The notes under the pieces: generated by a model | What the model was told of the DNA's origin: nothing | Database searches by the model: none | The model's input: the letters and a program-made list of their open reading frames with translations, nothing else | Shown: positions 27,548 through 57,728 of the stretch, one piece after another | How the letters are laid out: each line of letters begins with the position of its first letter | How positions within the stretch are numbered: position 1 is the first letter of the stretch | Translations under genes and position numbers: made by a program | NCBI GenBank assembly: GCA_963663235.2 | Contig: CAXXNO010000004.1 | Span: forward strand, 96,001 to 160,000 | Length of the DNA stretch: 64,000 bases | Reading direction: 5' to 3' | Source: Dehalococcoidia bacterium | GTDB lineage: Bacteria > Chloroflexota > Dehalococcoidia > Bin125

Positions 27548-29971
27548 TCAGGGTGCCGGTTGCCGCCAGACCTGACGGCCATCAACGCGCACCCAGAGGA
27601 CGGCCCGAGGCTGGAGTTCCGAGGCGAGCCCGGCAATGGGCAACTCCGGAAAAACCGTGTCAAATTGCTTCCTCTCCGGATTCCAGCGCAAGACCGTCAC
27701 CACGGAATCGACCAGCGCAAAGAGCGCCTCACCCGCAGACGTGGGCGGCCCCGTCCACGTCACGAAGTTGAGCCCCGTCTGGAGCGAGAGAATCCGGGCC
27801 GCGTTCGAGCCCGTCGGCTGGGCCCAGACCACGGCCTCTCCGGGCGTCAGCAGCACCCAGAGGGCGTCGCCGCGGTCGAGCGCGACGAGCGTGCTCACGA
27901 TAGGCAGGCCGGGCCGGTAGGCGTCCCATTCTTGGCGGGACGCGTCATAGCGGAACGCCGCGACGAGCCGCTCCCCAAGCGAGGCGAAGGCGGCGGCGGC
28001 CGCGCTCTGCGGGCCGAACCAACCGGTGGGCGTGAAGCCCGCAGCCAGCACGATGGGGCGCTCCGGGACGAAAGCCTCGGAGAACTCCGAGGTGTCCCCG
28101 CTGGCAGCGATGGCGATCGCGCTCAGCCCTCCGCCCGGCGGCAGGGGCACGGTGGTGGTCCAAGCTCCCGAGTTGTCGGCACGCGCTGCGCCGACGAACT
28201 CGCCGGGGGCGATGCGGTAGATCTCAACCAGCGCGCGCGGTGGGGCGGTGCCCGTCACCGCGGCGCTCGTTCCGCCCTGGACGACATCCAGGATCACCGG
28301 GGCGTTGAAGAGCCCGTTGGGGCCGGCATCGGCATCGTCGGGGTCGTTGGGGGTGAGCCCGTCGCCGCCCAGGTCGATGGCCGGTCCGTCGTTATCGAGA
28401 AAAGCATTGCGGGTGATGCGGTTGCGCTGGGTGTTCGCGTCCAGGACGACGACGCCCGCACCTACACTGGCCGCGATGCGGTTCTCTTCGATGATGGCGC
28501 CGGTGGTTCCGCGCCGGAGGGTGATCCCGACCCCGTTGCCGGAGGAGACATCGTCGGGACGCAGCCCAATGCGGTTGCCCCGAATCCGCACCTCCGCGAC
28601 GGTCACGACTTCGATCCCGCTCTGCTCCGAGGCCACGATCACGTTCCCCTCACCGCGCTCTCTCCCGCCGATCTCCACATCATCCGCGTCCATCACGCGG
28701 ATCCCGATGGTATTCGGCAGCGGTGTCGTCTCGTCGAGGCCGAGCCCGATCACGTTGCCGGTCACCCGCACGTCGCGAGTACTGAAGCCTTCGATCACGA
28801 TGGCCATGCTGCTGCCGACGATCCAGTTGCCCTCGCCGTCGGCGGGCCCTCCGATCTGGACATCGCGCGCGCCCGCCACCACGGAGATCCCGTCCTCCCG
28901 GTTGGGCACCGCCCGCCGGCCGCTCACGTCAAGCCCGATCCGGTTTCCCTGCACGGTGATTGCCTGCGCGCGCCGCTCGATGGCGATGCCCACGCGGTTG
29001 CCGGCGATGACATTGGCGGCGCCGGGGCCGCCGATAAAGACGCCGCGGGCATCGCCGTGGACGAAGACGCCAACGTCGTTGGGGACCGCCTCCGTCCCGC
29101 TCTCGTCCAAGCCGATCAGGTTGCCCTCAATCCGCAGAGCCAAGGCGCCGGTCTCGCGCACCTCGATCCCGGCCACGGCATTGCCACTGAGGACATTGCC
29201 CGCGTTGGGCTCGCTTCCGCCGACTGTCGCGTGGGCGTCATCGACGATCAGGATGCCGTCGTCATTGGGCAGCGCCTCACCATCGATGTCGAGGCCGATG
29301 ACGTTGCCGACGATCCGGGCGCCGACCGAGCCCGACCCGGCGACCAGCACTCCGTGGCCCGTGCGCTCGGGACCCGCGTTGCCGGCGATCCGGTTCCCAC
29401 AACCCGTGCAGTCATCGCCGATCCGGGCATCGCCTGCGCCCAGCAGCACCGCGATCCCGCCTATCCGGTTGGGCGCAGCGGTCCGCCCATCGAGCGCCAG
29501 GCCGACCCAGTTGGCGAGAAAGCTATTCCGATCGGCGGCATCGCCGATCGCCGCCAGACCGTAGCGCTCGAAGTTTCCTACGGCGAGGCCACGAATCTGC
29601 ACGTCGGGCGCGGATGAGACCAGCCCGCTGGCGGGCCCCGCATCGCGCCCATCGAGCATGATGCGCGGCCGCGAGGGATCACCGGGCTGCGACGTCCCAT
29701 CGATGATGGTTCCCGGATCGTCAATCGTCGGCAGCGGCGTTGACGGCGCGATGATCACGGGCCCGCTGCCGATGGCGAACCGGATGAGGTCCGGGCCGGA
29801 GTTCGCGTTGGAGGCGAGCAAGGCGTCGCGCAAGGTGCAGGTCTGGCCGCAGACGCCATCGCCGTCGTCGGACGCGGAGTTCACCGTCAGCACGCGCGAC
29901 TGCGCCGTGGCGGGGGGGGGCGGGACCAACGCCAGCGCCGCCAGGACGACCAAGAGAAGGACAGGCCTCAA
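27548..29971 (-). CDS. secreted CSLREA-domain/parallel beta-helix protein with two copies of the shared C-terminal module
   Basis: Signal peptide, LTVNSASDDGDGVC..TCTLRDAL (CSLREA), repeated GNxIGL...GI.I beta-helix rungs, IDLGGDG.TPND.DDADAGPN, two CTD copies. Confidence 0.88.
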   Translation of the reverse strand: MRPVLLLVVLAALALVPPPPATAQSRVLTVNSASDDGDGVCGQTCTLRDALLASNANSGPDLIRFAIGSGPVIIAPSTPLPTIDDPGTIIDGTSQPGDPSRPRIMLDGRDAGPASGLVSSAPDVQIRGLAVGNFERYGLAAIGDAADRNSFLANWVGLALDGRTAAPNRIGGIAVLLGAGDARIGDDCTGCGNRIAGNAGPERTGHGVLVAGSGSVGARIVGNVIGLDIDGEALPNDDGILIVDDAHATVGGSEPNAGNVLSGNAVAGIEVRETGALALRIEGNLIGLDESGTEAVPNDVGVFVHGDARGVFIGGPGAANVIAGNRVGIAIERRAQAITVQGNRIGLDVSGRRAVPNREDGISVVAGARDVQIGGPADGEGNWIVGSSMAIVIEGFSTRDVRVTGNVIGLGLDETTPLPNTIGIRVMDADDVEIGGRERGEGNVIVASEQSGIEVVTVAEVRIRGNRIGLRPDDVSSGNGVGITLRRGTTGAIIEENRIAASVGAGVVVLDANTQRNRITRNAFLDNDGPAIDLGGDGLTPNDPDDADAGPNGLFNAPVILDVVQGGTSAAVTGTAPPRALVEIYRIAPGEFVGAARADNSGAWTTTVPLPPGGGLSAIAIAASGDTSEFSEAFVPERPIVLAAGFTPTGWFGPQSAAAAAFASLGERLVAAFRYDASRQEWDAYRPGLPIVSTLVALDRGDALWVLLTPGEAVVWAQPTGSNAARILSLQTGLNFVTWTGPPTSAGEALFALVDSVVTVLRWNPERKQFDTVFPELPIAGLASELQPRAVLWVRVDGRQVWRQPAP

Positions 29972-30170
29972 GCCGATCCCTTCGCCCCCGCCTCCCGGGC
30001 CACTCTATGGGGCACTTCGGCCAGGGGCCAGGCGCCCGCCCCAGTCTCAGGGAGATCACCGCTCCGTGATCAAGGCGTTGACGGCCGCTAATCCGGGGCG
30101 TCCCCGACCGCGGCGGTGGAGATGGGCGCGCAGGATGGAAGGAGGCGGGAGCCGACAGAACACCAGCAAC

Positions 30171-30858
30171 ATGGCAAATCCCCATCGACGGCGGCCGCAC
30201 GGGCCCGCAGCGGGTAGGGGCGTCCTGCGCGTCCTGCTCACCACTCTCGCCGTTGCCGTGCTTCTCGCGGTCAGCGGGGATCGTGTGGCGAGCCGAAGCG
30301 GCGCCCGCTCCTATCCTGCTCAGCGCCACCGCCAGCGACGCGTCCACAGGTGGCGCCGGCGTCCAGGCCGGCGATCAGGTGGTCGTTCGCTTCGACTCAT
30401 CGACGAACGCGGTGGCGATCACCGCCGCCAACATCGCTGCGGCCCTGCCGCTCAACAACGGGCATTCGTGGCTGGACGGGGCCGGCGCGATCGCAAGCGC
30501 GGTGTGGAGCACAACCACCTTCGCCAACGACACCCTGACGGTCACGCTCTCCGCCGGTACCGCGACACCGACGGTCGCCATCGCGGATACCGTCTCGACC
30601 GGCACGGTCATCGCCGACGTCAGCAGCGCGAATCCCGCCACCGGCACGGCGGCACTCGCCGGCTCCTTCGGCGTCGACAGGTTGACGGTAGCCGGCATCG
30701 ACCGGGCGCCGGCCTCGACAACCCTCGGCCGGCGACACGCCACCGTCGCCAACGGCGTGAAGGTCTACGACGACCTCAACGACGACGGTGTCCTCGACAC
30801 GGGAGAGCCGGCGCTCGGAAGCCGGAGGCGTCCCGGATGGTCCCAGCGGCGATGGTGA
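30171..30858 (+). pseudogene. frameshifted, truncated large secreted Ig-like protein
   Basis: Signal peptide from ATG 30171 (VLLTTLAVAVLLAVS), +1 shift near 30290 into AEAAPAPILLSATASD...GDQVVVRFD...DTLTVTLS...VKVYDDLNDDGVLDTGEP, then breaks off. Confidence 0.7.
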
Positions 30859-31047
30859 TCACGTCATCGGCCGCCACGGTGGGCGAGCCGCCGGCGGAAG
30901 CCGAGAGGGCGATATCGTGAGGTCCCTCACCGCGGCCCGGGCCGGCACGACCACCCTGTAGCGGCCGTCGCCCGACTCTAGGACGGTGTCGGCGCCGACC
31001 TGTGCCAGTGCCGTCGAGCCGCTCAGCGATGAGATGGAGGGCGTCGC
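30815..31047 (-). pseudogene. inverted fragments of a related secreted-protein gene
   Basis: Minus strand reads ...VGADTVLESGDGRYRVVVPARAAVRDLTIS and, in another frame, IALSASAGGSPTVAADDVITIAAGTIRDASG. Confidence 0.55.
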
Positions 31048-31048
31048 G

Positions 31049-32644
31049 TCAGCTCAGGGGCCACACGGTCGCCGTGCGGGCAAAGACCGATAATCGGTCG
31101 CCGGAGCGGATGGAGAAGTTGACCCCTAGAGCGAGCCCCGGGAAGTAGCCCTCCCAGCCCTGCTCGAGATCGAAGCGCCAGACCGCCACAATCGCCCCTG
31201 CGTGCGACTCTGTGGCCTGGCGCACGGAGATGGTGGCGCTGGGCCAGATCACGACATTCAGACCGGCGGAGAGCGCCAGGCCCTCCAGCGCCGTCGATTC
31301 CGGAAGCGCGACGCTGTCCTCTACCTCGGCGATGATGCCCAACACGACCGCGCGGACCGTCACACCAGCCCTAGAGCCCAGGAAGGTGAGCGTCGACTCC
31401 GCGACGCCGTCCCGTACCTCGGCGACGGAGGGGTCAAACGCCGCCTCCGCGTCGTCTGGGAGGCCTGAGGCGCTGTAGCGGACACGGATGCCGTCGGGCA
31501 CGTCGAAGCCGTCGGCGTCGGTCACGGTCGCGCGCAGGCGAAAGAGCCCAGGCCCGGCCGGCTCGACCGCCAAGGAGATGGCGGCCGCAGGGCCGGCCAC
31601 GCGCACCACGGCGCTGGCTTCCAGCCCGTTCACCCGCACCGTGACGGTGACCGGTCCGGCTTGTTCGGCGTCCGCCGCCGACAGGTGCCCGCTCGCGCGG
31701 CCGCCGGAGTCGGTCGTTGGGGACTCGCCGGCGCCGCTGTGGACCACGGCCACGCCGGGGACGTCCGTGCTGAAGTCCACGCGGACTCGGGGCACAGGGC
31801 GGCCACCGTCGTCAAGGAGGATGGCGACCAACGTGCTTTCGCCCGCCGCGATGGGGTCATCGCCGAGGCTGATGCTGGAGCGCAGCAGGAGCAGTTCCAG
31901 GTTGGCGGGGGGGCCGTGGATGGTGACGTCGATGGCCGCCGACACCTCACCCGCGGTGGCGCGAATGGTCACGGCGCCGGGCTCCGCTTCCAAAAAGGCG
32001 GAGACCTGGCCGCCGGCATCGGCATCGAGCCGGATCTCCGCGCCCACCACGTCGGCGGCGTCCGGCGCGTCCGGCGCGGCGGAGCGCAGCAGGCCGGCGC
32101 TGGTGGAGAGCGTGACCGCGACGCCGGGCACGGCTTCACGCTCGCTGTCGCGGACCTCGACGATCACGCGCGACGGGACCGCGGCGCTGAGGACGGCGCC
32201 GTCGCGGGGGGCATGGAAGCTGATGGCCGCCGGATTGCCGACCAGCGTGACGACGGTGGAGCGCACGCTCTCGCCGACGCGGGCCGTAACCGCCGCGGTC
32301 CCCTGCCGCCCGTCACCGACGAGCGTCGCCGTCGCCACGGCTTCGGAGCCGTCGGTTTGCTGCAGAGCCACGCTGATGCGGCTGGGCCCGTTGGGCGTGC
32401 CGAACGCGCCCAGGGTGGTCGTGAGCGTGAGCCGAGTCTCCGGCGTGACGTCGCCGCCGACCGTCACCTGGACGGTGCTCTCGCCGCCATCCGCGAGGAT
32501 CTTCGTCGGGCTGGCGGTGATCGCCCGGACTGTCGCGGTGCTACCGGCGTGGAGCGGCGGGGACCAAGTTCCGACCGCGCTCAGCGCCACCAACAGCGCA
32601 AGCACCAGGAAGAGCGACCGGGAGTGGCGGCTGGCAAAAGTCAT
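31049..32644 (-). CDS. secreted invasin/intimin-type Ig-domain protein with the shared C-terminal module
   Basis: ATG 32644, signal peptide, ASPTKILADGGESTV, VEVRDS...VPGVAVTLSTSAG, LLDDGGRPVPRVRVDF, VTDADGFDVPDG; one CTD. Confidence 0.85.
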   Translation of the reverse strand: MTFASRHSRSLFLVLALLVALSAVGTWSPPLHAGSTATVRAITASPTKILADGGESTVQVTVGGDVTPETRLTLTTTLGAFGTPNGPSRISVALQQTDGSEAVATATLVGDGRQGTAAVTARVGESVRSTVVTLVGNPAAISFHAPRDGAVLSAAVPSRVIVEVRDSEREAVPGVAVTLSTSAGLLRSAAPDAPDAADVVGAEIRLDADAGGQVSAFLEAEPGAVTIRATAGEVSAAIDVTIHGPPANLELLLLRSSISLGDDPIAAGESTLVAILLDDGGRPVPRVRVDFSTDVPGVAVVHSGAGESPTTDSGGRASGHLSAADAEQAGPVTVTVRVNGLEASAVVRVAGPAAAISLAVEPAGPGLFRLRATVTDADGFDVPDGIRVRYSASGLPDDAEAAFDPSVAEVRDGVAESTLTFLGSRAGVTVRAVVLGIIAEVEDSVALPESTALEGLALSAGLNVVIWPSATISVRQATESHAGAIVAVWRFDLEQGWEGYFPGLALGVNFSIRSGDRLSVFARTATVWPLS

Positions 32645-32745
32645 AACGGCCGCCAGATCAAGAGGCGGAGCAGCCGCGCCCCTGCGCAACTGCTCCGCCC
32701 CTCTGGGCGAATCCCCCAATGCGGGGGATTCGACGCTGCCTTCTG

Positions 32746-33288
32746 CTAGCGGACGCTCAAGGACGAGCGCCGCACCGCCGCGACGCCGCCCAGCGCGACG
32801 ATCGCCGCGATGGCCAGAGCCAGCGGCAGGGCCGGGAAGCCGCTGCCGGAGGAGTCTGCCAGGCCACCGCTACCGGTGTCCGGCAGGGCCGAGGGCGCAG
32901 CCATCGCCATCGACGCCGACTCCAGGTCAAGCGCGACCTCGGTGAGGTCACCGCTCACGATCGGGAAGGGGTCGCTCCTCGAGCCGCCGTCGATGCTGAA
33001 GACCACACTGGACGCCGCGTCCGCGTCCACCTGGATCAGCCAGGTGCCATCGGCGATTGCGCCGGTGCCGACCGCGTCCTCGGTGTCGGCGTTCCAGGCG
33101 GTGACGACCGCGTCGTCCGCCGCCGGCTCGCCGTCCAGGAGGGCGCCGGTGCCGGTTTCCACGCTGCCGAAGAACTGGTGCGGCGGCAAGGGCGGGGCCT
33201 GTGCGAACGCGCTCGTCACGAGCGCCAGCGCCAGCGCGGCGGCGCTCAATGCGACCGCCCAACGCCAGGCTTTGCGAGTTTTGGCCAT
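32746..33288 (-). CDS. small secreted protein with LPxTG sortase-type sorting signal
   Basis: Signal peptide ending AFA-Q, PPLPPHQFFG, C-terminal LPDTG + hydrophobic helix + RRSSLSVR. Confidence 0.85.
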   Translation of the reverse strand: MAKTRKAWRWAVALSAAALALALVTSAFAQAPPLPPHQFFGSVETGTGALLDGEPAADDAVVTAWNADTEDAVGTGAIADGTWLIQVDADAASSVVFSIDGGSRSDPFPIVSGDLTEVALDLESASMAMAAPSALPDTGSGGLADSSGSGFPALPLALAIAAIVALGGVAAVRRSSLSVR

Positions 33289-33372
33289 GAGTAATGGCTC
33301 CCTTTCTGCTTCTTTCTGCTGTTGCGTTGTGGGGGACCGCCGCGCTTGACGGCGGCCCCCCACCTCTCACGT

Positions 33373-33392: not shown

Positions 33393-33404
33393 TTCGATCC
33401 TTGC

Positions 33405-33476
33405 TACGCCTCGATGACGATGTCCTGCGCCATCTCGGAGTACGCCTCGATGACGATGTCCTGCGCCATCTCGGAG
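33405..33476. repeat. perfect 36-bp tandem duplication
   Basis: tacgcctcgatgacgatgtcctgcgccatctcggag x2 (33405-33440, 33441-33476). Confidence 0.95.
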
Positions 33477-33671
33477 ACGACCCACAGGATGGCGCCATCA
33501 TCTATGGCGAAGTCGACGGCGCCGAGCGCCGGGAAGAAGTTCGTGTCCCACTCGTTAATCGACGGGTTGAACAGCCAGGCGATCTTGACGGTGGCGAAGA
33601 CATTCGCGGCCGAGGCCGGGCCGAAGGCCCAGGAGACGAACTGCCCCCCCGCGTTCAGCGAGAGGACGTCG

Positions 33672-33775
33672 TCACCGTCCACGGCCTCGTCACCGTCCAC
33701 GGCGTCCTCACCGTCCACGGCGTCCTCACCGTCCACGGCGTCGTCACCGTCCACGGCGTCGTCATGCGTCCACGG
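33672..33775. repeat. 18-bp tandem repeat, 5 units plus 1 degenerate, encoding (D/E)AVDG(D/E)
   Basis: tcaccgtccacggc(g/c)tc(c/g) units at 33672, 33690, 33708, 33726, 33744; degenerate unit at 33762. Confidence 0.92.
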
Positions 33776-35753
33776 TTATGTGGTAGATCGCATTCTCCGA
33801 CCCCATGCTGACCACGATCTCCGTGGCCCCCTGGGACAGGCCGAACGCCGTAATCACGGCACGGCCACCAGCCGTGCCGCCGATGGTCTCGACAGGGGCC
33901 GCGAAGCCCGGCAAGGCCACTGGCGGTCCTGAACAGGATCCTCGTACTCGTCGAGATCCAGTGCGTGGCCGTGCCGTCCGCCACCGGGTCGCCGTCGAGG
34001 TCCCAACCGGACGCCGTGTACATAGCCGTCCATGCCGACGTCGATGTTCGCGGGACCGTCCACCGTGACATCCACGACCGGCCCGGCCGTCACGAACTCA
34101 TCCGTGTCGCTCGATCATCGTCGACACGCAGCCATCCGTGCAGGTCGCGGTGATGGTGAAGGTGTCCTTCACCAGCGTGTCGTCATCGAAGTTGATCACG
34201 CCCACGTGCGCGATGCCGCCAGCGTTCCCGGCTCCGAGCTTCGTCATACCCGCACACTTCTCGCCGCCGGCAACGCAACCGCTGCCGCCCGGCCCGGTGG
34301 GCAGACCATTTCCCTTCGGCGCCAGCTTCGCCAGCAACGAAGAGGCTCTGCGACACGCCCGCCGAATTCGTCACGGTGAAACTCAACTTGCGCCGGCCAC
34401 TTCCAGGCCAGCCGCGTCGAGCACGCGGCCCACAACGTAGACCTCATCGTTGGCCGTGCCGCCCATTCCGCCGAATCCTGGCCGAGGACGATGTCCTGCG
34501 GGACGTTCGGAACCCCCGCATCCTGCCGTGGTGCTAAAGGTGTCCACCTCAACGGTGACGCCCTCGCCGACGCAGTTACCGACGATCGTGTTACTGACGA
34601 CAGCGCCGACCCTCGCCGTGATCTCGAAGGGGCCGGCCACGCCGGCACACTCGAACGACACGGAGGCGACACCCTGCCCTCAGGCTCGGCCGCATTACTT
34701 CGCCGTCGTTAACGTCTCCGTGTTCCCGACGCAGGACTGCAGGGCCGCACACACCATTGGCGCAGCCGTCGCTCCCGCTCCGTTGCCGCGTCGGCGGCGG
34801 AATAGGCCAGCACCATTGAGGACCGCAGAGTTCACGACGTTAGCGGTGCCAAGAGTGTCCTGGAAGAGGCCCTGACCTATGACTTGGAACGTCGTCGGGG
34901 TTCCCGGGGCCGGTTCGCCATGGTGTCCCGCACGATCGCGCTCAAGACGATCTGATCGCCTGGCGCCGCAGCAGCTGTGAGCGGCAGGTTCACCAACGAG
35001 GGCGAGTCCGCCGCCTTCGGGTCTGCGGCTCGGCCCGGGTCAGGCCTCAGCGGTACCATTCGCCGCGACGAGCTTGAATGCTGGAGACCACCGCAATCTG
35101 CGTGTAGGCCACCTGGATCGGACTGGAATCTGCGCCCGGTCCGCCCTGGGTGATGTTGACCACGACGTTACCCGCGGTGCCTGTACCCGTCAGACCGACA
35201 GTAGTAGCTTCAGTTTACCTACTCCGCATCCTTCATCGATGTCACAGAGTGCCTCGTCATTGAAACAGATGAGGGACTGGCCGGCGTTGGCGGTGAACTG
35301 CGCCGAGCCTGTGCTGACCTCGTCGATGCTGGACACGTAGAAGGTCGTGCCATCGGCGTCGGGACGTATTCCCCATGATTTTCAATTCCGTGGCACCGTT
35401 GGCCGAGATATCGTCCGGCTCGAAACTCGCCGTGTGATCGGCCTCTGCCTGCCGGAACGGCAGCGCGGCAAACGCCACCGCGGCAAGCAGGGCCAACGCC
35501 AGCGCTACCAAGAGATAGTGCGGGCTAATTGTCAGAGCCCGCATCTGTGTTCTGCTCATTAATCTATGTCTCCATCTTCTCTTTCAGGAGTTTGAGAACG
35601 CTCCGTTTACCTGTTCGTTCGCTCGCTCGCGTCCTTCTCTTCCCCCTTCGCTTCCGCAAAGGTGGCGCGCGAAGGACTAGGGCCTCCTCTCCGTGCCGTT
35701 TCTCACCCGCGAAGGGTGAAGGATCGAATCCGCCTGACTAAGAGTCCTGGCCA

Positions 35754-37004: not shown

Positions 37005-37870
37005 CTATGGGAGCGGCGGCGGCCAGATCACGGTGCGGCTGACCCGCACCCAGACGCCGTCGCCGTCGTTGAGCGTCCTCAGCGTGTTGAGGATGGCGAG
37101 ATCGCCGGGGCCGTAGCGGAGGAAGGCTTGCGCCTGGGCCTCCCACGTGAACATGGCGATCAGCGCCGTGCCCAGGTCGGCCGCGGCTTCCGCCACCACT
37201 GTGCCGTCGGGCCCGGTCCAGGCGACCAGGTTCCAGCCCCGCAGGCGCGTCACCTCGCGCACGACGGCCGGAGGCGGCACGGGCTCCGCCGGCGGGTCGC
37301 CGCTGACGACCACATTGTCGACGCGCGCCTCGTGGGTCCCCAGCGTGGTGTTGCCGGTGAAGCGGATCTCGATCAGCCCGCCCTCCGCGCCGGGCAGCAG
37401 CGCGTCAACCGTGTTGGCTGCAGGTCCGGTGGTCAGGTTGAGGGCCAACTCGTGCACCTGCACCGTGCTCCAGGTCCCCCCTCTCAGACGCCACTCGACG
37501 ACGAGCGAGCCAGGGTCGATGTTCCCGGCTGCGGTGCTCTGCCCCCAGGTGGACTCCAGGTGGACGTTCTGCAGGCCGCCCGTGTTGACCTCGCGGGACG
37601 CGCGCCCGCCCGTGACCAGCCGCAAGGAGCCGTCTCCGGCGCCTGTGAGCCGGATCGAGGCGTCACCAACCGCGCAACAGGGTCGAATTCCGCCCAGCCC
37701 GGTACGTCCCCACTGGAGGTCGTCCCGAAGTTGTCACTGAAGCGGATCTCCGCTTGGGTCGCTTCGGCGCCCCCGGCCTAGGGGCCAACGATTGCCACGC
37801 CCAGGGCACCCATCGGCCCGAGCGTCATCGTGCCGGCCAAGACCCAAATTCGGGACGGTCGTCCAGGCAT
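37005..37870 (-). pseudogene. secreted beta-sandwich protein with the shared C-terminal module; internal stop and frameshift
   Basis: RBS GGAGGG, ATG 37870, in-frame TAG at 37778-37780, FSDNFG..GW, shift near 37680 into ORF 37005-37625 ending in the CTD. Confidence 0.72.
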
Positions 37871-37891
37871 TCTCACCCTCCGTAGTCCGTA

Positions 37892-37921
37892 GCGTTGCTC
37901 GATGACGCGTTGCTCGATGAG
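37892..37921. repeat. 15-bp tandem direct repeat upstream of the pseudogene
   Basis: gcgttgctcgatgac gcgttgctcgatgag. Confidence 0.85.
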
Positions 37922-38149
37922 TAGTCGGTGTGCAGCCATACTTCGCGCGGGATAGGAGATTCTGACACAGACGATCGGAGCGAGGGCTCCCAGCGGGCGT
38001 GAACCGCCGGCAGGCGCGACGCGCTTGAGTCACGGCCATCGATCCGGGAACGACGCGAGCGTATAACGCCGGCATCAATAGACGCTGTACTCGGCGAGCG
38101 AAGTGAGCCTAACATAAGCGTGGTCGACGGGAAGAGACGGAAAACCGAC

Positions 38150-38675
38150 GTGACCACCGATCGAAATCTCGTGGCGAATCGTCGCAACGCGCTCCGCAGC
38201 ACCGGCCCGCGCACGGCGGAAGGCAAGCGGCGCGCCAGCCAGAACGCGCGCACGCATGGGCTCCTCGCGAGGACGCTCGTCGTGGACGGTGAGGACGCTG
38301 CCGCACTCGATGCCTTGGCAGGCAGCATACGGGACGCTCTCCTGCCGGAGGGCGAGCTCGAGGCGGCCCTGGTCGACCGGATCGTAGCCGCGCTCTGGCG
38401 GCTGCGGCGCTGCGGGCACGTCGAGACCGCGATCTTCGCACAGGATCTGGAGTGGATCACCGCGACCTCGCGGGAAACTGGACCTGGGCCTCCCCTTCAT
38501 CCGCGCCTCCGACGCGTTTTCCAAGCTGTCGCGATACGAGACGGCGATCGAACGAACTCTCTACCGGGCACTGCATGAGCTGGAGCGGCTGCAGGAAAAG
38601 CGCAAGGGGTTGGCCGTGCCGCCGCCGCTGGCCCGTGACGTCACGATCCGTGGGGAAACAGCCACAGGGTCGTGA
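38150..38675 (+). pseudogene. frameshifted hypothetical protein of the ANRRNA-STGP-HGL type
   Basis: ANRRNALRSTGPRTAEGKRRASQNARTHGL...WRLRR, +1 shift near 38475 to FSKLSRYETAIERTLYRALHELERLQ. Confidence 0.7.
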
Positions 38676-38904
38676 CCCCGGCGCGCCCCTGCCGCACGTC
38701 CGGCGCGCTCGTTCGGACGCCGCCGGCGCGCGATGGCCGCGGCCCCACGCCTCGCCCAATCGTCCAATCCCGAGGGCGCTCCCGATCCATGGCTTGATCG
38801 GCCAGGACGGCGGGAGCCGGGAAGAGACAGCGGGCCGATCCACTGCTCTTCCTGGATGAGCCAAGCGAACCGGTCTCCCTTGACCACTCCGGCGACGCCT
38901 CCGA

Positions 38905-39267
38905 TTGCTGCGCGAACGCGCGCAGCTCAATCAGTGGGAGGTCGCCAGGGAACTGGGCCGAACGGATACCCAGTTGAACCACATCGAAAACGGGCGGGGT
39001 GTCCCGGATGATCCCGATGAGTTTGGGCGGAATGACGGGATCGCCGTCGCGCGTTCGCTCATAGGGAAGACGGATGAATTGCAGGCCCTGCTTGGGGAAA
39101 TGGGGCGTCTCTCAAGTCGGGAGGCAGGCGAGCTGTCCCTGGCGCCTCGGCATCGTCGCGGCACGGGATTACGTATTACGCAACGGGGCATGCCCGCAGC
39201 TCGCGTCGACGAGGGCATCGAAGGAATCACCCGAACGATCGAGGGCTCGGGACAGTCGGCACGATGA
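38905..39267 (+). pseudogene. XRE/Cro-CI helix-turn-helix remnant
   Basis: LRERAQLNQWEVARELGRTDTQLNHIENGRGVP; the remainder is not recognisable. Confidence 0.55.
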
Positions 39268-40020
39268 ACCAAGCGGAGGGATGCAGGGAAGAACACCTAC
39301 CGAATCGTCATTGACTTCCTGGAGGAGGCAGAGGGATCCTCACGGGCGACCACGTGATCAGGTCCGCTTCGGCCACCGGTTCCAGAGATGGACGTGGTCA
39401 TCGACTCTCCGAAACGCCGCCGGCCCTTCCCCCGAGCGGAGATCGTAGACCGTGGCCGCCCGTCGGCCCCGCAACCACTGGCGACGGTGCCTTCGCCCGG
39501 CGACCCTGCTTCGCCGAGCAAGCCTGCTCGGCGGGACGGACGCGATCGACGCCCAGCGCTGCGATCCAGATGAACGGGACGCTCGCTCGCATCACTCCTC
39601 CTCACCGCGGTGCGCTCCGCCTCTTGGAAGCGTGCCGTCCGGCGGGCGTACCGATCCCGCAGGCCGGGACCGGACGAGCCGGCGCCGGTCATCGGTAGGA
39701 CAAAACTTACGAAACGAACCCCATGCTGTCTGGGATTCGTCCGCCGGATCCCGCGGCAGCGGGCGGTAGCGCGCCCGCGATTCTCCCGTATCGTTGGCGA
39801 CGATTCGCCGAACGAGGCCGCCGGATATGCGATGGAGCCCCCCAGGTGGCCGATTCCGCCGCCACGCCCGTATCGGCCGGGTCTGCCCCGGCGCCGCCCG
39901 TCCCCCCACGAGGGACAAGCGCTCTCCCGACACAGCCTCGGTGCGCCGTGGCTGGCGGCGCGGGCGCGTCCCAACCACGCCTTCTCCCAGCAGGAGGACA
40001 ATCGCGCGGGCGGCGCCGAG

Positions 40021-40926: not shown

Positions 40927-42330
40927 TCAGGAAGCGGGCTCGCCCACCCCCTCCGGGATCGTGACCTCCGGATGCTGCGCCAGCGCGTCCCAGATAATCG
41001 CGCGGATGGCATCGTAGCGGTCGCGGCTCTGGGCCTCGATACGGACGGAGAGCACCGGGCCGGTGTTGGAGGCGCGCACCAGCGCCCAACCGTCGTCGAA
41101 GTCTATGCGCGCGCCGTCGATCTCCATGACGGAATAGAGGTCGCGGAAGTGCGCCGTGATCTCCGCGGCCACGCGAAACTTGGCCCGATCCGGGCAGGGC
41201 AGCTTCAGTTCCGGCGAGGTCACAAACGCGCGCAGCCCCTGGAAATGCGCCGAGAGGGGCTGGTCATCGGCCGCGAGCATGCGAGCGAACAGGCAGGCGG
41301 CGAAGACCGCGTCGTCGAGGCCGTAGTAGTCCTCGGCAAAGTAGTAGTGCGCGCTGCCTTCCCCCCCGAGGAGGATCCCCTCGTCGCGCATCTTGCGCTT
41401 CCCGAGGGAGTGCCCCGTTGGGGCGAAGACGGGAACGCCGCCCCGCGAGCGGATGTCGTCGACCGCGGTGAGCGAGGTCTTGACGTCCACCAGCACGCGC
41501 TCGCCGGGACGCCGCGCGAGCAGATCACGGGCCAGCACCGCCAGGATCTCGTCCGCCTGGTAGCGGACGCCGCGCTCGTTTACTAAGCCGAAGCGATCGC
41601 CGTCGCCGTCCCAGGCGACGCCGAGGTCGGCGCCATGTTGGAGCACGGCCGCGCGGAGCGCCGTCATCGTTTCCGCCACCTGGGGATCGGGCAGGTGATG
41701 GGGGAAGGTGCCGTCCAACTCGGCAAAGAGCTCGACCACGTCACAGCCGATGCGTCGCAACGCCTCCGGGCCCGTCAGGGTCGCGACGGCGTTGCCGGCG
41801 TCCGTGACCACTTTGATGCGCCGGGGCAAGGCAAAGCGTCGCGTGAGGAGATCCCAATACTCCGGCTTGGCGTCGCGCTCGCTGAGGGCGCCCCGGCCGC
41901 CCTCGAAATCGTCGCCCTGGGCGATCTCGCGCACCCGCTGGATCTCATCGGGGGCCAGGGGAATGCCGCGTCGCTCCAGCAGCTTCATGCCGTTCATATG
42001 GGTCGGATTGTGGCTGCCGGTCACGCTGACGCCGCCATCGAGGCCCCAGTGCGCGGCGGCGAAATAGAGCAGGGGCGAAGGCGCCAGCCCGATATCGACG
42101 ACCGAAACGCCCGCGGCGCGCACACCCTCGACGAAGCCATCGCGCAGCGCCACCGAGGAAGGACGGTTGTCCCGCCCGGCGACGATCTCATGCACATCGT
42201 ACTGGCGAACGAGGTAGGTGCCGTAGGCGCGGCCGATGCGCTCCGCCACCGCCGGTGTCAGATCGTCGCCCACTGTGCCGCGAATGTCGTAGGCACGGAA
42301 CATCAAAGGGTTCAAAGTGATCGGTGGCAT
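40927..42330 (-). CDS. phosphomannomutase/phosphoglucomutase, copy B
   Basis: FRAYDIRG, GRDNRPSS, TGSHNP, WDGDGDR, GGEGSAH, GWALVRASNT. Confidence 0.92.
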   Translation of the reverse strand: MPPITLNPLMFRAYDIRGTVGDDLTPAVAERIGRAYGTYLVRQYDVHEIVAGRDNRPSSVALRDGFVEGVRAAGVSVVDIGLAPSPLLYFAAAHWGLDGGVSVTGSHNPTHMNGMKLLERRGIPLAPDEIQRVREIAQGDDFEGGRGALSERDAKPEYWDLLTRRFALPRRIKVVTDAGNAVATLTGPEALRRIGCDVVELFAELDGTFPHHLPDPQVAETMTALRAAVLQHGADLGVAWDGDGDRFGLVNERGVRYQADEILAVLARDLLARRPGERVLVDVKTSLTAVDDIRSRGGVPVFAPTGHSLGKRKMRDEGILLGGEGSAHYYFAEDYYGLDDAVFAACLFARMLAADDQPLSAHFQGLRAFVTSPELKLPCPDRAKFRVAAEITAHFRDLYSVMEIDGARIDFDDGWALVRASNTGPVLSVRIEAQSRDRYDAIRAIIWDALAQHPEVTIPEGVGEPAS

Positions 42331-42387
42331 TGGCGTCCGTGATTGCGCGATTGGATCGAAGTCCGTGACGCCCGACCCGCTGCGATT

Positions 42388-43800
42388 CTATCCTCCCGAG
42401 GGCGCCGGTTCGCCGAAGTCCGGCGGCAGCGTCACCTCGGGATGCTCGGCCACCATCTGGAAGACGCGCGATCGGATCGCCTCGTAGCGGTCGCGATCTT
42501 CCGCCTCCATCCGGATCGAGAGGACCGGATTGGTGTTTGAGGCGCGCACGAGGGCCCAGCCATCGCCGAAGTCGATGCGCGTGCCGTCTGCATCGACGGC
42601 GACGGCGGCGGCGCGCAGGCGCTCCGTGATCGCCGCCGCGACGCGGAACTTGGCCTCGTCCGCGCAGGGCAGCATGATCTCGGGGGAGGTGACCAAGCGC
42701 TGCATGCCGGCGAGATGCGCGGAGAGCGGCCGGCTCTCCGCCGCCAGGATCTTGGCGGCCGCGCAGGCCGCGTACACGCCGTCGTCGATGCCGTAGTAGT
42801 CCTCCGCGAAGACGATGTGGCCGCTGGCCTCGCCGCCGAAGAGGATCTTCTCCGCCTCAATGCGCCGGCGGAGCAGCGAATATCCGGTTGGAGTCAGCAC
42901 CGGCTCGCCGCCGTGGGCGCGGACGTCCCGGATGGCGCTGAGCGAGGTCTTGGCATCGAGCAAGATGCGCGCACCAGGATGGCGCGTGAGCACGTCGCGC
43001 GCGAGCAGGGCCACGAGCCAGTCCGCGTCATAGCGGACGCCCCGCTCGTCCACCATGCCGACGCGGTCGCCGTCGCCGTCCCACGCGAAGCCCACATCGG
43101 CGGCGTGCTCTTGGACCGCCGCGCACAACTGCACCATGGTCTGCGGATCCTGCGGGTTCGGCACGTGGTTGGGGAACCCCTCCAGCAACTCCGTGTACAG
43201 CCCGATCACGTCACAGCCGATCCGCCGCAGCGCCTCCGGCCCAGTCAGCGTGGCGACGCCGTTGCCAGGATCGGCGACCACCGTGAGGGGGCGGGCGAGA
43301 CGAAAGCGCTCAGCCAGGAGCGCCAGGTATTCGGGTTTGGGATCGCGCTCGTCCAGGGCGCCGCGACCGTGGTCGAGATCGCCCGACTCGGCCAGCCGCC
43401 GGACCTCCTGGATCTCCTCGGGCAGCAGCGCCGACGCCCCGCGCTGCACGAGCTTGGCGCCGTTGAACTCGATCGGGTTGTGGCTGGCCGTGACATTCAC
43501 CGCACCGTCCAGCCCCCAGGCCGCCGCGGCGAAACCGACGACCGGGCTCGGACTCAGCCCCACGGCAGTGACATCGACCCCAGCGCCCCGCGCTCCCGCG
43601 ATCAGGGCGTCGTAGAGCGCGGGCGACGAGGGGCGGCTATCGCGGCCGACCGCGATGCGCCGGCCGTCGAATCGTCGTCGCAGATAGGTGGCGAACGCCG
43701 CTCCGAGTCGCTCGGCGACCGCAGGCGTGAACTCCTCAGCGGCGATCCCGCGGATGTCGTAGGCCCGGAAGATATGAGGATCGAGGGCGAGGTCCGGCAT
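42388..43800 (-). CDS. phosphomannomutase/phosphoglucomutase, copy A
   Basis: ATG 43800; FRAYDIRG, TASHNP, WDGDGDR, GGEASGH, GWALVRASNT. Confidence 0.92.
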   Translation of the reverse strand: MPDLALDPHIFRAYDIRGIAAEEFTPAVAERLGAAFATYLRRRFDGRRIAVGRDSRPSSPALYDALIAGARGAGVDVTAVGLSPSPVVGFAAAAWGLDGAVNVTASHNPIEFNGAKLVQRGASALLPEEIQEVRRLAESGDLDHGRGALDERDPKPEYLALLAERFRLARPLTVVADPGNGVATLTGPEALRRIGCDVIGLYTELLEGFPNHVPNPQDPQTMVQLCAAVQEHAADVGFAWDGDGDRVGMVDERGVRYDADWLVALLARDVLTRHPGARILLDAKTSLSAIRDVRAHGGEPVLTPTGYSLLRRRIEAEKILFGGEASGHIVFAEDYYGIDDGVYAACAAAKILAAESRPLSAHLAGMQRLVTSPEIMLPCADEAKFRVAAAITERLRAAAVAVDADGTRIDFGDGWALVRASNTNPVLSIRMEAEDRDRYEAIRSRVFQMVAEHPEVTLPPDFGEPAPSGG

Positions 43801-43887
43801 CTGGATCCATGCTAACCGGGCCGTAGCCGCTGCCATAGCGCACGCGCGACACGCGCCGAATCCGCCGGGCAACGCCGCGGGGGCTGA

Positions 43888-52596: not shown

Positions 52597-52638
52597 CCGT
52601 TATACTGCGCGCAGGCGGCGGACCCAGGAAGCGGCCCG

Positions 52639-54832: not shown

Positions 54833-55560
54833 CGGTGCGCAGCCCGGTCTCTCGTCGGGCGCGGCCAGCGCTCGCGCTGCTGGCCGCGCTAGGGTTGGTC
54901 CTGGCGGCCTGCGGGGGCAACGGCAGCGAGCCGGCCGTAGAACCCGCGCCCGAGCCCGAGCGCAACCCAGGTGTCATCGTCGAGGTGCTGGCGGAAGACA
55001 TCGCGGCGGGTTTCGAGGAGATCAACTTCTATCACGACATCCCTGGGCTGTTGCTGGAGAGCGACGATCCGGTCCTCTCGGGGCTGGGGAGCCTGGCCAG
55101 TGAGGCCGGCCGCTCCGACGGCCAGGGCTTCGCCAATCTCGAGACCGGCGAGTTGGTGTTCGTGATCACGGTGGTTCTCAACTCGCTTGACGACGCGCAC
55201 GGCGCGTTGGACTACATCGCGGCGCAGACGGTCGAAACCATCTTTCAGTTCATCAGCCCCGATGAGACGCTGTTCGATCGCGAACGACTGGCCGACCCTC
55301 GGATGGGGGAGCGGGCGGTCCGTTACTCCCTGCGATACGGATCCGAGGAGGGGGGGCGGCGCACGCGAGACGTGGCGACAGACCTGATCATCTTCACCAC
55401 CGGCGGCAGCCTGGTCTTCGTGCTGCAGTCCGTGACCACCGGCGACAAGGCGAGCGCGGCAGGACAAAGCGTGGATCTCGTGACGCTGAGCCGTACGATC
55501 AGCGATCGCATCGTGGACGAGCAGGCGGCGGCGCCAGAGCCCAGCGAGATGTCCCCCTAG
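54829..55560 (+). CDS. hypothetical lipoprotein
   Basis: Lipobox VLAAC; start overlaps the kinase stop (GTGA). Confidence 0.82.
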   Translation: MTVRSPVSRRARPALALLAALGLVLAACGGNGSEPAVEPAPEPERNPGVIVEVLAEDIAAGFEEINFYHDIPGLLLESDDPVLSGLGSLASEAGRSDGQGFANLETGELVFVITVVLNSLDDAHGALDYIAAQTVETIFQFISPDETLFDRERLADPRMGERAVRYSLRYGSEEGGRRTRDVATDLIIFTTGGSLVFVLQSVTTGDKASAAGQSVDLVTLSRTISDRIVDEQAAAPEPSEMSP

Positions 55561-57728
55561 CCCTGCGGCCAGGGACCGCCGCGCCCCTCCACCAGCACCC
55601 AGACGGCCTCAAAGTGGGGAAGTTCAGTGAGCGTCGGGGGCAGAGGGCTGCGCGAGATGTAGGCGCGGAAGCGCTGCCGCTCCTCGGCCCAGGCGTAGAC
55701 CGCCACGATCTCCGCAGTCGTTTGGGTGAGCGCCGTTTGTGGGTCGGTGGTGGGACCAGCCCAAACGACCAGTTGCCACCCTGGCTGTAACGTCGGTGCC
55801 TGGAAGAGCGCACGGAACTGCCGCCAGGGGACCGGAGGCGTTCGTCCCATGAAGATCCAGAGCCCCTGGCCGGTACGGATCTCGTCGATGGTGAAGAGGG
55901 GGTCACCGGGCACGGCCAGTTCCCACGCCTCCCCGTTGCGGGCGAAGACGCGGCGCGCGGCGGGGGGGAGATCGGCCAGCACGACGTCGCCGGGGCCGGT
56001 GGGGCCGGCCCAGCTCACCAGGTTCCAGCCGGGACGCAGCACCACATCACGCGGCAAGGCCACGGTCAGCGGCGTGGAAGGACGCGAGGCGCCACCGGCG
56101 CTCGTGGCGACGGCGGTGAGCGCGACCTGGGCGACCGTGCCATCGAAGCGCTGCAGCAAGACGCGCAGCGTGAAGTGGCCCGTCGCGTCGGCTTGGACAG
56201 TGGCGATCTGCTCGCCCGGCGGATCGGCGGAGACCGCCACGGCGCTGCCCACGGCGGCGGTCCCTTCCAGCTCGATGGCTGTGACGGCCACGAGCGCCTG
56301 GGTGATCGCCGGCGGCGCGGGCGCGCCGGCCTGGAGGGCCGTGAGCGTCGCGCCGAAGTGCAAGCGGCCGCTGCCGTCCCAACCAGGCGCCCCGGCGTCG
56401 GGGAGGTCCACGGCGCCGTCGCTGAGCAGGCGGCGCACATCATCGGAGGAGGCGGCGGGATCCAGGGCGCGGATCAAGACGACCGCGCCCGTGACGAAGG
56501 GAGCAGAGAAAGACGTGCCAGTGCCCGTGTCGAAGGTGGGCTCGCCGGTCAGCGCCTGCACGCTGGTGGACAGGACGTCTACACCGAGCGCCACGAACTC
56601 CACCTCGGGGCCTATCGGGGAGAAGAGCGGACGGACGTCCGGGGCCTGCTCCCCATCGTGCGAGCCCACGGCGATCACATCGGGCAACGCGGCGGGGAAG
56701 GTCACGTCGAACCCGGTATTGCCGGCGGCCCCCACCAGGATCAGGCCGGCAGCGGCTGCGGCCTCCACCGCGATCTGGGCCGACTGCGGGAGCACACTGG
56801 CCGCGAGGCTGATGTTGACGATGTCGGCCCCGTTGGCGATGGCGTACTCGAGGGCGGCGACGAGACCGGAGAAGAGGCCGTCGCCTTCCGGGCTGGTGAC
56901 GCGCAACGCCATGATCGACACCTGCCAGGCGGCGCCGGCGATGCCGAACTGATTGTTGCCCACCGCCGCGATGATCCCGGCAACCTGCGTGCCGTGCCCG
57001 ACGGCGCCGTCCGGGACGCCGTCCTGATCCTGGTCCTCGCCGTCCCCCAGGGCGGAGTCACCGGGCTTGGCGTCGGGGTCGTTGTCCTGGCCGGGCCGGC
57101 CCGAACCGCTGCCCTGCCAATCGCTGATGAAGTCGTAGCCGTTAATATCGTCGACGAAGCCGTTGCCGTCGTCATCGAGGCCGTTGCCGGGCACCTCGCC
57201 GAGGTTGGTCCAGATGTTGGAAGCGAGATCCGGATGGTCGAGGTCAACAGCGCCGTCGATGAGCGCGACCACCACGTCGGGGCGGCCGGTGGTGACGGCC
57301 CAGGCCTCGGGCCCGCCCATGAGGTCATAGAACCAAGCCTGGTCGGTAGCGTACTGGGGGTCGTCGGGCACCACCTGCGCCAGGCGCAGGCTGTAGTTCG
57401 GCTCCGCCAGGTCGACCAGACCGGCGGCCAAGAGGCGGTGGCGTGTCTCCTCCACGGTCCCGAGCGGCACGCGGAGACGAGTGATGCCTGTCAGGGGATA
57501 CTCATCGAGGATCTGGACGTCGAGGCGGTCGAGCGCGGCGACGCGCAGATCGGGCGTCGCCGCCGTCTTGAAGCGCACGAGTAACTCGCCGTCGAGAAAG
57601 CTTTCGGCCCCAGAGGACGGAGGCGGCGGCGCGGGAGCATCGGCGCGGAGGCCCCCCCCGGTCAGTACCGCGCCGGCAAGGACGAGGGCCACCCAGAGTG
57701 CGGGGAACAGGGAGCGGCGTCGCAGCAT
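55557..57728 (-). CDS. secreted S8 (subtilisin) serine protease with Ig-like domain and two copies of the shared C-terminal module
   Basis: Signal peptide, propeptide (GELLVRFK...AEPNY), triad VALIDG / GHGTQVAG / GTSFSAP, acidic insertion before His, two CTD copies. Confidence 0.92.
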   Translation of the reverse strand: MLRRRSLFPALWVALVLAGAVLTGGGLRADAPAPPPPSSGAESFLDGELLVRFKTAATPDLRVAALDRLDVQILDEYPLTGITRLRVPLGTVEETRHRLLAAGLVDLAEPNYSLRLAQVVPDDPQYATDQAWFYDLMGGPEAWAVTTGRPDVVVALIDGAVDLDHPDLASNIWTNLGEVPGNGLDDDGNGFVDDINGYDFISDWQGSGSGRPGQDNDPDAKPGDSALGDGEDQDQDGVPDGAVGHGTQVAGIIAAVGNNQFGIAGAAWQVSIMALRVTSPEGDGLFSGLVAALEYAIANGADIVNISLAASVLPQSAQIAVEAAAAAGLILVGAAGNTGFDVTFPAALPDVIAVGSHDGEQAPDVRPLFSPIGPEVEFVALGVDVLSTSVQALTGEPTFDTGTGTSFSAPFVTGAVVLIRALDPAASSDDVRRLLSDGAVDLPDAGAPGWDGSGRLHFGATLTALQAGAPAPPAITQALVAVTAIELEGTAAVGSAVAVSADPPGEQIATVQADATGHFTLRVLLQRFDGTVAQVALTAVATSAGGASRPSTPLTVALPRDVVLRPGWNLVSWAGPTGPGDVVLADLPPAARRVFARNGEAWELAVPGDPLFTIDEIRTGQGLWIFMGRTPPVPWRQFRALFQAPTLQPGWQLVVWAGPTTDPQTALTQTTAEIVAVYAWAEERQRFRAYISRSPLPPTLTELPHFEAVWVLVEGRGGPWPQG

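What the first reader, a model, noticed from the sequence alone, without database searches (positions are those of the whole stretch)
27548..57728. A shared ~75-aa C-terminal module on five different secreted proteins: candidate surface/S-layer anchoring or sorting system
Seen in sequence: the same module ends five proteins. CSLREA protein, 2 copies (~27551-28056): VLAAGFTPTGWFG..AFRYDASRQEWDAYRPG..RGDALWV..VWAQP and LSLQTGLNFVTWTG..LRWNPERKQFDTVFPE..VLWV..VWRQP. Invasin-like protein (~31052-31280): LALSAGLNVVIW..VWRFDLEQGWEGYFPG..SGDRLSV..VWP. S-layer-like gene (~33404-33668): LSLNAGGQFVSW..WLFNPSINEWDTNFFPA..DGAILWV. Pseudogene 37005: RLRGWNLVAWTG..FTWEAQAQAFLRYGPG..DGDGVWV..IWPPP. S8 protease, 2 copies (~55560-56048): VLRPGWNLVSWAG..GQGLWI and TLQPGWQLVVWAG..YAWAEERQRFRAY..AVWV..PWPQ. 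All five have N-terminal signal peptides and lack a TM anchor, lipobox or LPxTG. The module is always terminal, single or tandem. It does not resemble SLH, LysM, CWB2, PEP-CTERM or T9SS CTDs as I know them. Inference: a lineage-typical envelope-attachment domain that docks enzymes and adhesins on the S-layer or a wall polymer.
Basis: partly seen in the sequence, partly recalled or inferred. Interest (0 to 1): 0.85.

Follow-up and report, generated by a model that had tools for sequence, protein, structure and literature searches.

The report
Unnamed surface-protein module of a Chloroflexota order
Five secreted-protein genes in this window share a real, folded domain of about 75 residues that no protein database describes; it is very common in one order of Chloroflexota and probably holds enzymes and adhesin-like proteins on the cell surface, though this is untested.

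Summary
The module is real. All 7 window copies score 49.5-76 bits against an HMM built only from 68 copies elsewhere in the genome; the best of 1,400 shuffles scored 13.8 bits.

It is not a window curiosity. The 2.75-Mb genome holds 82 copies in 61 open frames. All 65 of 65 genomes of the order have it. In the phylum sample, 23 of 301 genomes (own genome included) have it, and 0 of 121 in another phylum. It matches 12,148 cluster representatives in metagenome data.

Pfam, NCBIfam and PDB sequences give no family. The predicted fold is confident, but its best solved match, RCK_C at Z 5.7, lies within noise.

"Always C-terminal" fails genome-wide: only 28 of 61 frames end in it, so it is not a sorting signal. 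Two of the five window genes are broken, and "S-layer-like" has no support.

Best reading (about 0.45): a non-covalent module that retains proteins at the surface or binds a surface ligand. The usual unit is a tandem pair; a second, always-single subtype is under strong purifying selection.

This scan noted what looks like the same domain before, on other DNA (e1-1509571, e1-1208937).

The parts
27548..29971 (-). Gene for a secreted CSLREA-N-terminal / right-handed beta-helix protein (807 aa) ending in a tandem module pair
   Evidence: Translation; TIGR04214, NosD and Beta_helix hits; leader MRPVLLLVVLAALALV...
27809..28057 (-). Module, type A, first of the tandem pair
   Evidence: 76.0 bits against the non-window HMM; alignments A1 and A2
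27551..27796 (-). Module, type A, second of the pair; ends the protein
   Evidence: 70.6 bits; single-module model pLDDT 86.2; tandem model pLDDT 93.2, pTM 0.87
31049..32644 (-). Gene for a secreted Big_1 (invasin-type Ig) repeat protein ending in one module
   Evidence: Translation; Big_1 at E 6.4e-10; leader MTFASRHSRSLFLVLALLVAL
31052..31285 (-). Module, type A, single
   Evidence: 50.5 bits
33404..33775 (-). 123-codon open frame: acidic 18-bp x6 repeat linker, a type-B module, and a perfect 36-bp x2 duplication of its last strand. It is the remnant of a larger broken gene
   Evidence: no Pfam family in the upstream fragments
33443..33670 (-). Module, type B (GGQF...KIAWLF...LWVV subtype)
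   Evidence: 61.7 bits; alignment A4
37005..37733 (-). 242-codon open frame without a leader, 5'-truncated and frameshifted, ending in one module
37008..37253 (-). Module, type A, single
   Evidence: 72.1 bits
55557..57728 (-). Gene for a secreted subtilase (fervidolysin-like propeptide, Peptidase_S8, weak Big_6 hit below the Pfam cut-off) ending in a tandem module pair
   Evidence: Translation; Pfam hits; leader MLRRRSLFPALWVALVLAGAV
55815..56048 (-). Module, type A, first of the pair
   Evidence: 49.5 bits
55560..55799 (-). Module, type A, second of the pair
   Evidence: 59.8 bits

Best explanation
The module is an autonomous, folded extracellular domain of about 67-80 residues, with strand and helix order beta-beta-alpha-beta-beta-loop-beta-beta. 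It belongs to a large family that has no name in the databases searched.

Proposed mechanism. Carrier proteins are exported through Sec or Tat leaders. The module then binds, without a covalent bond, to a component common to the cell's own envelope: a wall-associated polymer, or a surface protein or layer. This keeps proteases, wall hydrolases, oxidases and adhesin-like propeller, beta-helix and Ig proteins at the cell surface.

There are two forms. Type A usually occurs as two adjacent copies that are predicted to pack into one rigid unit. Type B always occurs singly and is very conserved.

Shown here: the family, its size and spread, the secreted context, free position within proteins, purifying selection, and a confident predicted fold. 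Inferred: that it binds anything, and what the ligand is.
For: Secreted context. 39 of 61 carrier frames have a leader-like start, against 29 of 300 random long frames.

Many unrelated carriers. In this genome they include S8 and trypsin-like proteases, M23+SH3_3+DPBB wall hydrolases, amine oxidase, Kelch, CHRD, DUF11, CARDB, FG-GAP, MopE, TIG and Big_1. None is a glycoside hydrolase. The same picture holds in 89 of the top 150 metagenome representatives.

Free position, as for known non-covalent anchors. Of the top 150 representatives, 64 carry it at the C-terminus, 55 at the N-terminus, 24 internally, and 7 are modules only. In the own genome the split is 15, 12, 11 and 1.

One telling carrier. 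P0053 has a twin-arginine leader without Cys, then a tandem pair, then a Peripla_BP_6 solute-binding domain. Such a protein must stay at the cell.

Constraint. The 24 type-B copies sit on unrelated proteins and keep 14 invariant columns and 70% mean column identity. Their four-fold sites are nearly saturated: 0.50 identity against 0.42 expected. They are therefore old copies under one common constraint.

Lineage-specific subtype. Type B at E<=1e-12 is found in 1 of 5 sister-genus genomes.

Exclusivity with LysM. LysM lies in 9 other frames of this genome and never together with the module.

The tandem unit. The model has pLDDT 93.2 and pTM 0.87, and 151 of 164 gaps between neighbouring copies are 25 residues or less.
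Against: No ligand or binding is shown, and no solved wall-binding module resembles the model.

The genome already has other retention systems, so there is no gap to fill: two sortases and about 7 LPXTG proteins, LysM and Lgt.

Some carriers do not need the module for retention. One LPXTG protein, C4:30317-32509, carries two weak copies. C10:4778-5917 has an N-terminal membrane helix.

Adhesin-like partners (FG-GAP, Kelch, beta-helix) fit binding to outside targets equally well.

The solute-binding fusion is a single case among the 89 representatives scanned.
Confidence: 0.45

Rival explanations
1. The module binds targets outside the cell, such as particles, polymers or other cells. It would be the adhesive or substrate-targeting part of exoproteins, like a carbohydrate-binding module.
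For: Many carriers look like adhesins: FG-GAP, Kelch, beta-helix, Big_1, CARDB and DUF11. Type B keeps four invariant Trp and three invariant Phe in 75 residues. By recalled general knowledge, such aromatic richness is usual for sugar-binding surfaces.
Against: There is no glycoside hydrolase or lyase among the carriers of 56 own-genome frames or of 89 representatives. Wall hydrolases that act on the cell's own wall, and a solute-binding protein, carry the module. One uniform, strongly conserved subtype on 24 unrelated proteins argues for one fixed ligand.
Confidence: 0.2
2. The module is a protein-protein docking module. It would pair with itself or with a partner protein and so assemble secreted proteins into surface complexes, in the manner of cohesin-dockerin.
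For: Two adjacent type-A copies are predicted to form one rigid unit (pTM 0.87), so the fold can pack against itself. Subtypes are lineage-specific and uniform within a genome, as expected for co-evolving partners. Proteins made only of modules exist: 7 of the top 150 representatives, and C4:655347-656015 in this genome.
Against: No partner has been identified. There is no cohesin or dockerin signal in Pfam. Type B, the single form that would need a partner, has none predicted here.
Confidence: 0.15
3. The module is a passive structural domain, a spacer, stalk or folding aid, with no ligand.
For: It sits next to Ig-like spacers (Big_1, Big_6, TIG) in several carriers. No known binding fold matches it.
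Against: Spacers tolerate change, yet type B keeps 14 invariant columns across 24 old paralogues. The module is often the very first or last domain rather than a linker. Proteins made only of modules exist.
Confidence: 0.12
4. The module is a C-terminal sorting or secretion signal that is recognised and processed by a dedicated machine. This is the 'sorting system' in the first reader's title.
For: In the window itself every copy or tandem pair is C-terminal.
Against: Genome-wide, 33 of 61 frames do not end in the module, and 55 of 150 representatives carry it at the N-terminus. It is a confident globular fold without a hydrophobic helix or basic tail. The genome's true LPXTG tails look quite different. 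No NCBIfam sorting-signal model matches.
Confidence: 0.03

Closest known systems
SLH (PF00395), CWB2 (PF04122) and LysM (PF01476): non-covalent wall- or S-layer-anchoring modules
   Same: A short module shared by many unrelated exoproteins of one genome. It is found at either end of the protein, often in fixed multiples, and its carriers include proteases and wall hydrolases.
   Different: No HMM match. The predicted fold, ββαββ-ββ, differs from what I recall of these families: SLH helical, LysM βααβ. The unit here is a pair or a single copy, not a triplet. The ligand is unknown. LysM is present separately in this genome and SLH was not found.
RCK_C / TrkA_C domain (PF02080)
   Same: The best structural resemblance: Z 5.0-5.7, rmsd 2.6-2.9 A over 64-67 residues. 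Size and order of strands and helix are similar. By recall, RCK_C domains also work as pairs.
   Different: The Z score lies below the tool's stated noise level of 7-8. hhalign against 21 TrkA_C domains from this lineage gives a probability of 0.3%. RCK_C is cytoplasmic; this module is on exported proteins.
C-terminal sorting domains and signals (LPXTG/sortase, PEP-CTERM, T9SS CTD)
   Same: A shared tail on secreted proteins within the window.
   Different: It is not restricted to the C-terminus and has no helix plus basic tail. The genome runs a separate LPXTG/sortase system.
Type I dockerin (PF00404)
   Same: A small module appended to diverse exoenzymes, with lineage-specific subtypes.
   Different: No HMM match. 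No partner of cohesin type is known here.

Membership tests
SLH (PF00395) | Match to the SLH profile | tested here: not met
   No PF00395 hit on the 5 window proteins (E<=0.1), the 56 other carriers or the 75 isolated copies (E<=5). No SLH hit anywhere in the genome, while the control genomes did hit.
LysM (PF01476) | Match to the LysM profile | tested here: not met
   No hit on any carrier or copy, although the same genome gives 18 LysM matches in 9 other frames.
CWB2 (PF04122) | Match to the CWB2 profile | tested here: not met
   No PF04122 hit.
Tripartite C-terminal sorting signals (LPXTG, PEP-CTERM and the like) | Strictly C-terminal motif, then a hydrophobic helix, then a basic tail | tested here: not met
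   33 of 61 frames do not end in the module. The model is globular without a terminal helix. No NCBIfam signal model matches. The genuine LPXTG tails of this genome are listed.
T9SS C-terminal domain | Match to NCBIfam/Pfam CTD profiles and strictly C-terminal position | tested here: not met
   No such family. 55 of 150 representatives carry the module at the N-terminus.
RCK_C / TrkA_C (PF02080) | Profile similarity to TrkA_C | tested here: not met
   No PF02080 hit. hhalign of A2 against 21 TrkA_C domains gives probability 0.3%, E 0.22.
RCK_C / TrkA_C (PF02080) | Shared fold with solved RCK_C domains | tested here: inconclusive
   Top rows of VIA-align have Z 5.0-5.7, rmsd 2.6-3.3 A and 62-70 residues aligned. 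This is below the stated noise level. Foldseek gives no hit at E<=0.001.
Non-covalent surface-anchoring modules (a functional class, not a family) | Binding of the isolated module to the cell envelope | not testable with these tools
   Needs a binding assay.

The most novel reading that the evidence does not exclude
The tandem pair, and its single type-B offshoot, could be the main protein-display system of a whole order of Chloroflexota. It would be a domain with no recognisable solved fold that recognises an order-specific envelope polymer or surface lattice. Genus-specific subtypes would co-evolve with their ligand, much as SLH domains pair with pyruvylated wall polymers in other phyla. It would then name the missing anchor for about 2% of the genes of these bacteria, and for some 12,000 protein clusters in metagenomes.
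Probability: 0.3. Interest if true: 0.7.

Novelty: new variant of a known kind. Interest (0 to 1): 0.55.

Why it matters
Little is known about how Chloroflexota build their cell surface. This domain is present in every genome searched of one order, at up to 83 copies per genome, and it carries the secreted proteases, wall hydrolases and adhesin-like proteins.

It is invisible to Pfam and NCBIfam, so these proteins are annotated only in part. A profile for it would annotate thousands of metagenome proteins. The module is also a ready handle for finding the envelope component it binds, and a possible display tag for this lineage.

Tried and rejected
- Complex prediction on two copies of the type-B module (alignment A4) gave no verdict: score 0.00 and controls not run. 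It says nothing either way.
- The search for related loci with A2 failed because the alignment was too diverse. I then ran it with the whole CSLREA protein. That spent the only genome-contig scan and returned mostly beta-helix relatives, not the module.
The ESM Atlas was closed for the window sequence and for a stored homologue. No source names or Atlas clusters were therefore seen.
- The word-indexed protein search found only 29 hits ('longer') and 3 hits ('near'). None had a Pfam family on the module or a source name other than 'hypothetical protein'.
- Two literature searches found nothing on this domain: Chloroflexota / cell envelope / S-layer / surface proteins, and the motif strings GWNLV, GWNLI, GWNLL and GWNFV. 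Only listings and the starts of abstracts were seen; no paper was read.
- Lgt is present, so the idea that the module replaces a missing lipoprotein pathway was dropped.
- The 'S-layer-like' label was dropped: 0 of 8 fragments had a Pfam hit.
- Rejected as family assignments: SLH, LysM, CWB2, dockerin, sorting signals and RCK_C (see Membership tests).
- Two genome-search runs used a wrong 'of' value and were corrected. One script error was corrected.
Full report
**1. The observation**

There are seven copies:
- 27809-28057 and 27551-27796, on a CSLREA/beta-helix protein;
- 31052-31285, on a Big_1 protein;
- 33443-33670;
- 37008-37253;
- 55815-56048 and 55560-55799, on a subtilase.

To avoid circularity I built an HMM from 68 copies that lie outside the window. 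The seven window copies score 49.5-76.0 bits against it (E 5.6e-13 to 3e-21 for 30,535 frames). The best of 1,400 shuffled versions reached 13.8 bits.

The three intact proteins begin with Sec-type leaders without cysteine and end in the module. The other two are broken:
- The 37005 frame has no leader and is truncated and frameshifted upstream.
- The 33404 frame is 123 codons long. The stretch between it and a leader-like ORF at 35257-35559 is split over several frames and lacks normal codon bias.
- None of 8 fragments of that stretch hits a Pfam family, so "S-layer-like" is unsupported.

**2. Size of the family in this genome**

An HMM iterated over all six-frame open frames of the 2.75-Mb genome converges on 82 copies in 61 frames. 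The genome search gives 86 and 83 matches.

There are two subtypes:
- Type A (L.pGWNLV.W.G ... W ... P ... L..G..LWV) is about 75 residues long. It occurs 21 times as an adjacent pair and 13 times singly; some of the singles are gene fragments.
- Type B (AGGQFVFW.FGPA.AADVF..VKIAWLFD...W.SFIPALG..NFAL.DG.VLWIVSE) is about 67 residues long. It occurs 25 times singly and twice next to a type-A copy.

Only 28 of the 61 frames end within 15 residues of the module. Of the 39 frames with a recognisable leader, 15 carry the module at the C-terminus, 12 directly behind the leader, 11 internally, and 1 consists of modules only. A leader-like start was found in 39 of 61 carriers, against 29 of 300 random long frames. 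This is a crude heuristic.

**3. Carriers**

A Pfam scan of the other 56 carrier frames found no family on the module itself. The families elsewhere in these proteins are a broad extracytoplasmic set: Peptidase_S8 (3), trypsin-like, M23+SH3_3+DPBB and DPBB wall hydrolases, amine oxidase, Kelch propellers, CHRD, DUF11, CARDB, FG-GAP, MopE, DUF192, YHYH, Gmad2, PD40, TIG and Big_1. None is a glycoside hydrolase.

**4. Spread**

- Own order, which is one family in the collection: 65 of 65 genomes, with 4-83 matches each. This genome is the richest.
- Even sample of the phylum: 23 of 301 genomes at E<=1e-5, own genome included. At most 18 candidates per genome were scored.
- Other families of the class: 2 of 8.
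- Five named MAGs: one weak match each in a Dehalococcoidia MAG and an Anaerolineae MAG, and none in two Chloroflexia MAGs or one Rubrobacteraceae MAG.
- The phylum of that Rubrobacteraceae MAG: 0 of 121 genomes.
- 1.84 billion cluster representatives: 12,148 match at E<=0.001, 4,116 at 1e-10 and 240 at 1e-30.

The 150 best representatives are biased towards pairs, because scores add up. Among them 143 have two copies, and 151 of 164 gaps between neighbouring copies are 25 residues or less. By position, 64 are C-terminal, 55 N-terminal, 24 internal and 7 modules only.

None had a family on the module, and 55 had no family at all. Partner families were FG-GAP, Kelch, Trypsin_2, DUF6174, beta-helix, DPBB, Big_1, PEBP, a PHB-depolymerase-type esterase and one Peripla_BP_6.

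That the genome is a Chloroflexota rests on an earlier unchecked note (e1-3029377). It is consistent with Chloroflexia and Thermoflexales MAGs heading the list of named records that encode relatives of the CSLREA protein. I did not verify the taxonomy.

**5. Is it a known family?**

No family covers the module in any of these searches:
- Pfam-A or NCBIfam on the whole window proteins;
- the 75 isolated copies scanned one by one. The family that recurs most is hit by 2 of 75 copies in Pfam and 4 of 75 in NCBIfam, all with E>0.004;
- PDB sequences, best E 0.047.

The precomputed Pfam columns of the database hits also list nothing that I recognise as covering the module, and four of the 29 hits have no family at all.

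The predicted structures are confident. The single module has pLDDT 86.2 and pTM 0.76, with the order beta-beta-alpha-beta-beta-loop-beta-beta. The tandem pair has pLDDT 93.2 and pTM 0.87 over 172 residues. I read the high pTM as a fixed mutual arrangement of the two copies. That is an inference, because no PAE or coordinates were available to me.

Foldseek against the PDB gives nothing at E<=0.001 for either model. The full VIA-align scan puts RCK_C/TrkA_C domains on top (Z 5.0-5.7, rmsd 2.6-3.3 A, 62-70 residues aligned). The tool's own guidance is that Z under 8 may be only a common arrangement. A profile-profile comparison with 21 TrkA_C domains from this lineage gives a probability of 0.3%. 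So there is no demonstrable relative, and only a weak likeness of topology to RCK_C.

**6. What it most likely does**

A sorting signal is excluded by the free position and the globular fold. The genome's real sorting tails are different. About seven proteins end in LP.TGSGG, a hydrophobic stretch and a basic tail; one of them lies in the window at 32746-33363. There are two sortase genes at C12:460899-462399.

Several points favour one shared, fixed ligand:
- Type B sits on 24 unrelated proteins and keeps 14 invariant columns and 70% mean column identity.
- Four-fold degenerate sites of identical residues are 0.50 identical, against 0.42 expected from composition. Most copies are therefore old and held by selection, not recently copied. 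A few recent duplicates exist, for example one pair identical at all 44 such sites.
- The subtype is lineage-specific: at E<=1e-12 it is found in 1 of 5 genomes of sister genera.

Two kinds of carrier point to the cell's own surface. One is the wall hydrolases (M23/SH3_3/DPBB with an internal pair). The other is a Tat-exported solute-binding protein with an N-terminal pair and no lipobox cysteine (P0053).

The genome makes peptidoglycan enzymes (4 transpeptidase matches). It has LysM on 9 other frames, never together with the module. SLH and PG_binding_1 were not found, in a genome that is 92% complete.

I therefore put non-covalent retention on the cell's own envelope first, at about 0.45.

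**7. What speaks against this reading**

- Nothing shows binding.
- The genome already has sortase, LysM and Lgt, so the module fills no obvious gap.
- One LPXTG protein carries two weak copies, and one carrier has a membrane helix.
- Adhesin-like partners fit binding to outside targets as well.

The rivals, with my estimates, are binding to external substrates (0.2), protein-protein docking (0.15), a passive structural domain (0.12) and a sorting signal (0.03).

**8. Novelty**

I found no description of the domain in Pfam-A (2025 copy), NCBIfam release 20 or two full-text searches, for which I saw only listings and the starts of abstracts. I could not see AlphaFold DB, InterPro or the ESM Atlas.

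This scan's own notes describe what appears to be the same domain on other DNA: e1-1509571, also "five proteins, seven copies", and e1-1208937. A word-based sequence look-up found no look-alike window, so the identity with those notes rests on their wording alone.

Functionally this would be a new, unrelated family within a known kind, the non-covalent surface modules.

Noticed in passing
window 32746-33363 (-): A 205-aa secreted protein with a classical sortase signal (ALPDTGSGG..., a hydrophobic stretch, RRSSLSVR) lies between two module genes. About seven such LPXTG tails occur in the genome. Two sortase genes lie at G000:C12:460899-462399, directly upstream of a module-bearing gene (C12:462484-464496).
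   Followed up: partly
window 33405-33476 and 33667-33775: A perfect 36-bp x2 tandem duplication copies the last strand of the type-B module and the end of the frame. An 18-bp x6 repeat encodes the acidic DAVDG(D/E) linker in front of the module.
   Followed up: partly
window 33776-35600 (-): This stretch has lower G+C, no long frame and no normal codon bias. Protein-like fragments lie in several frames behind a leader-like ORF (35257-35559). It looks like a decayed gene.
   Followed up: partly
window 37734-39300: Upstream of the truncated 37005 frame there is no ORF with normal codon bias. A short XRE-type helix-turn-helix-like frame (38884-39267, +) lies there. A rearrangement may have cut the gene.
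   Followed up: no
G000:C12:49699-52254 and G000:C6:672-3800: Two pairs of module genes on different contigs look like duplicates. They have identical leaders (MKRRRGMSPMRLISV...), and one module pair is identical at all 44 four-fold sites. One copy lies at a contig end, so this is either a recent duplication or an assembly repeat.
   Followed up: no
window 40930-43887 (-): Two adjacent paralogous phosphoglucomutase/phosphomannomutase genes.
   Followed up: no
G000:C11:121096-124346 and window 32746-33363: Several exported proteins share the motif QAPP(L)PPHQFFGS directly after the leader, which suggests another shared N-terminal element.
   Followed up: no
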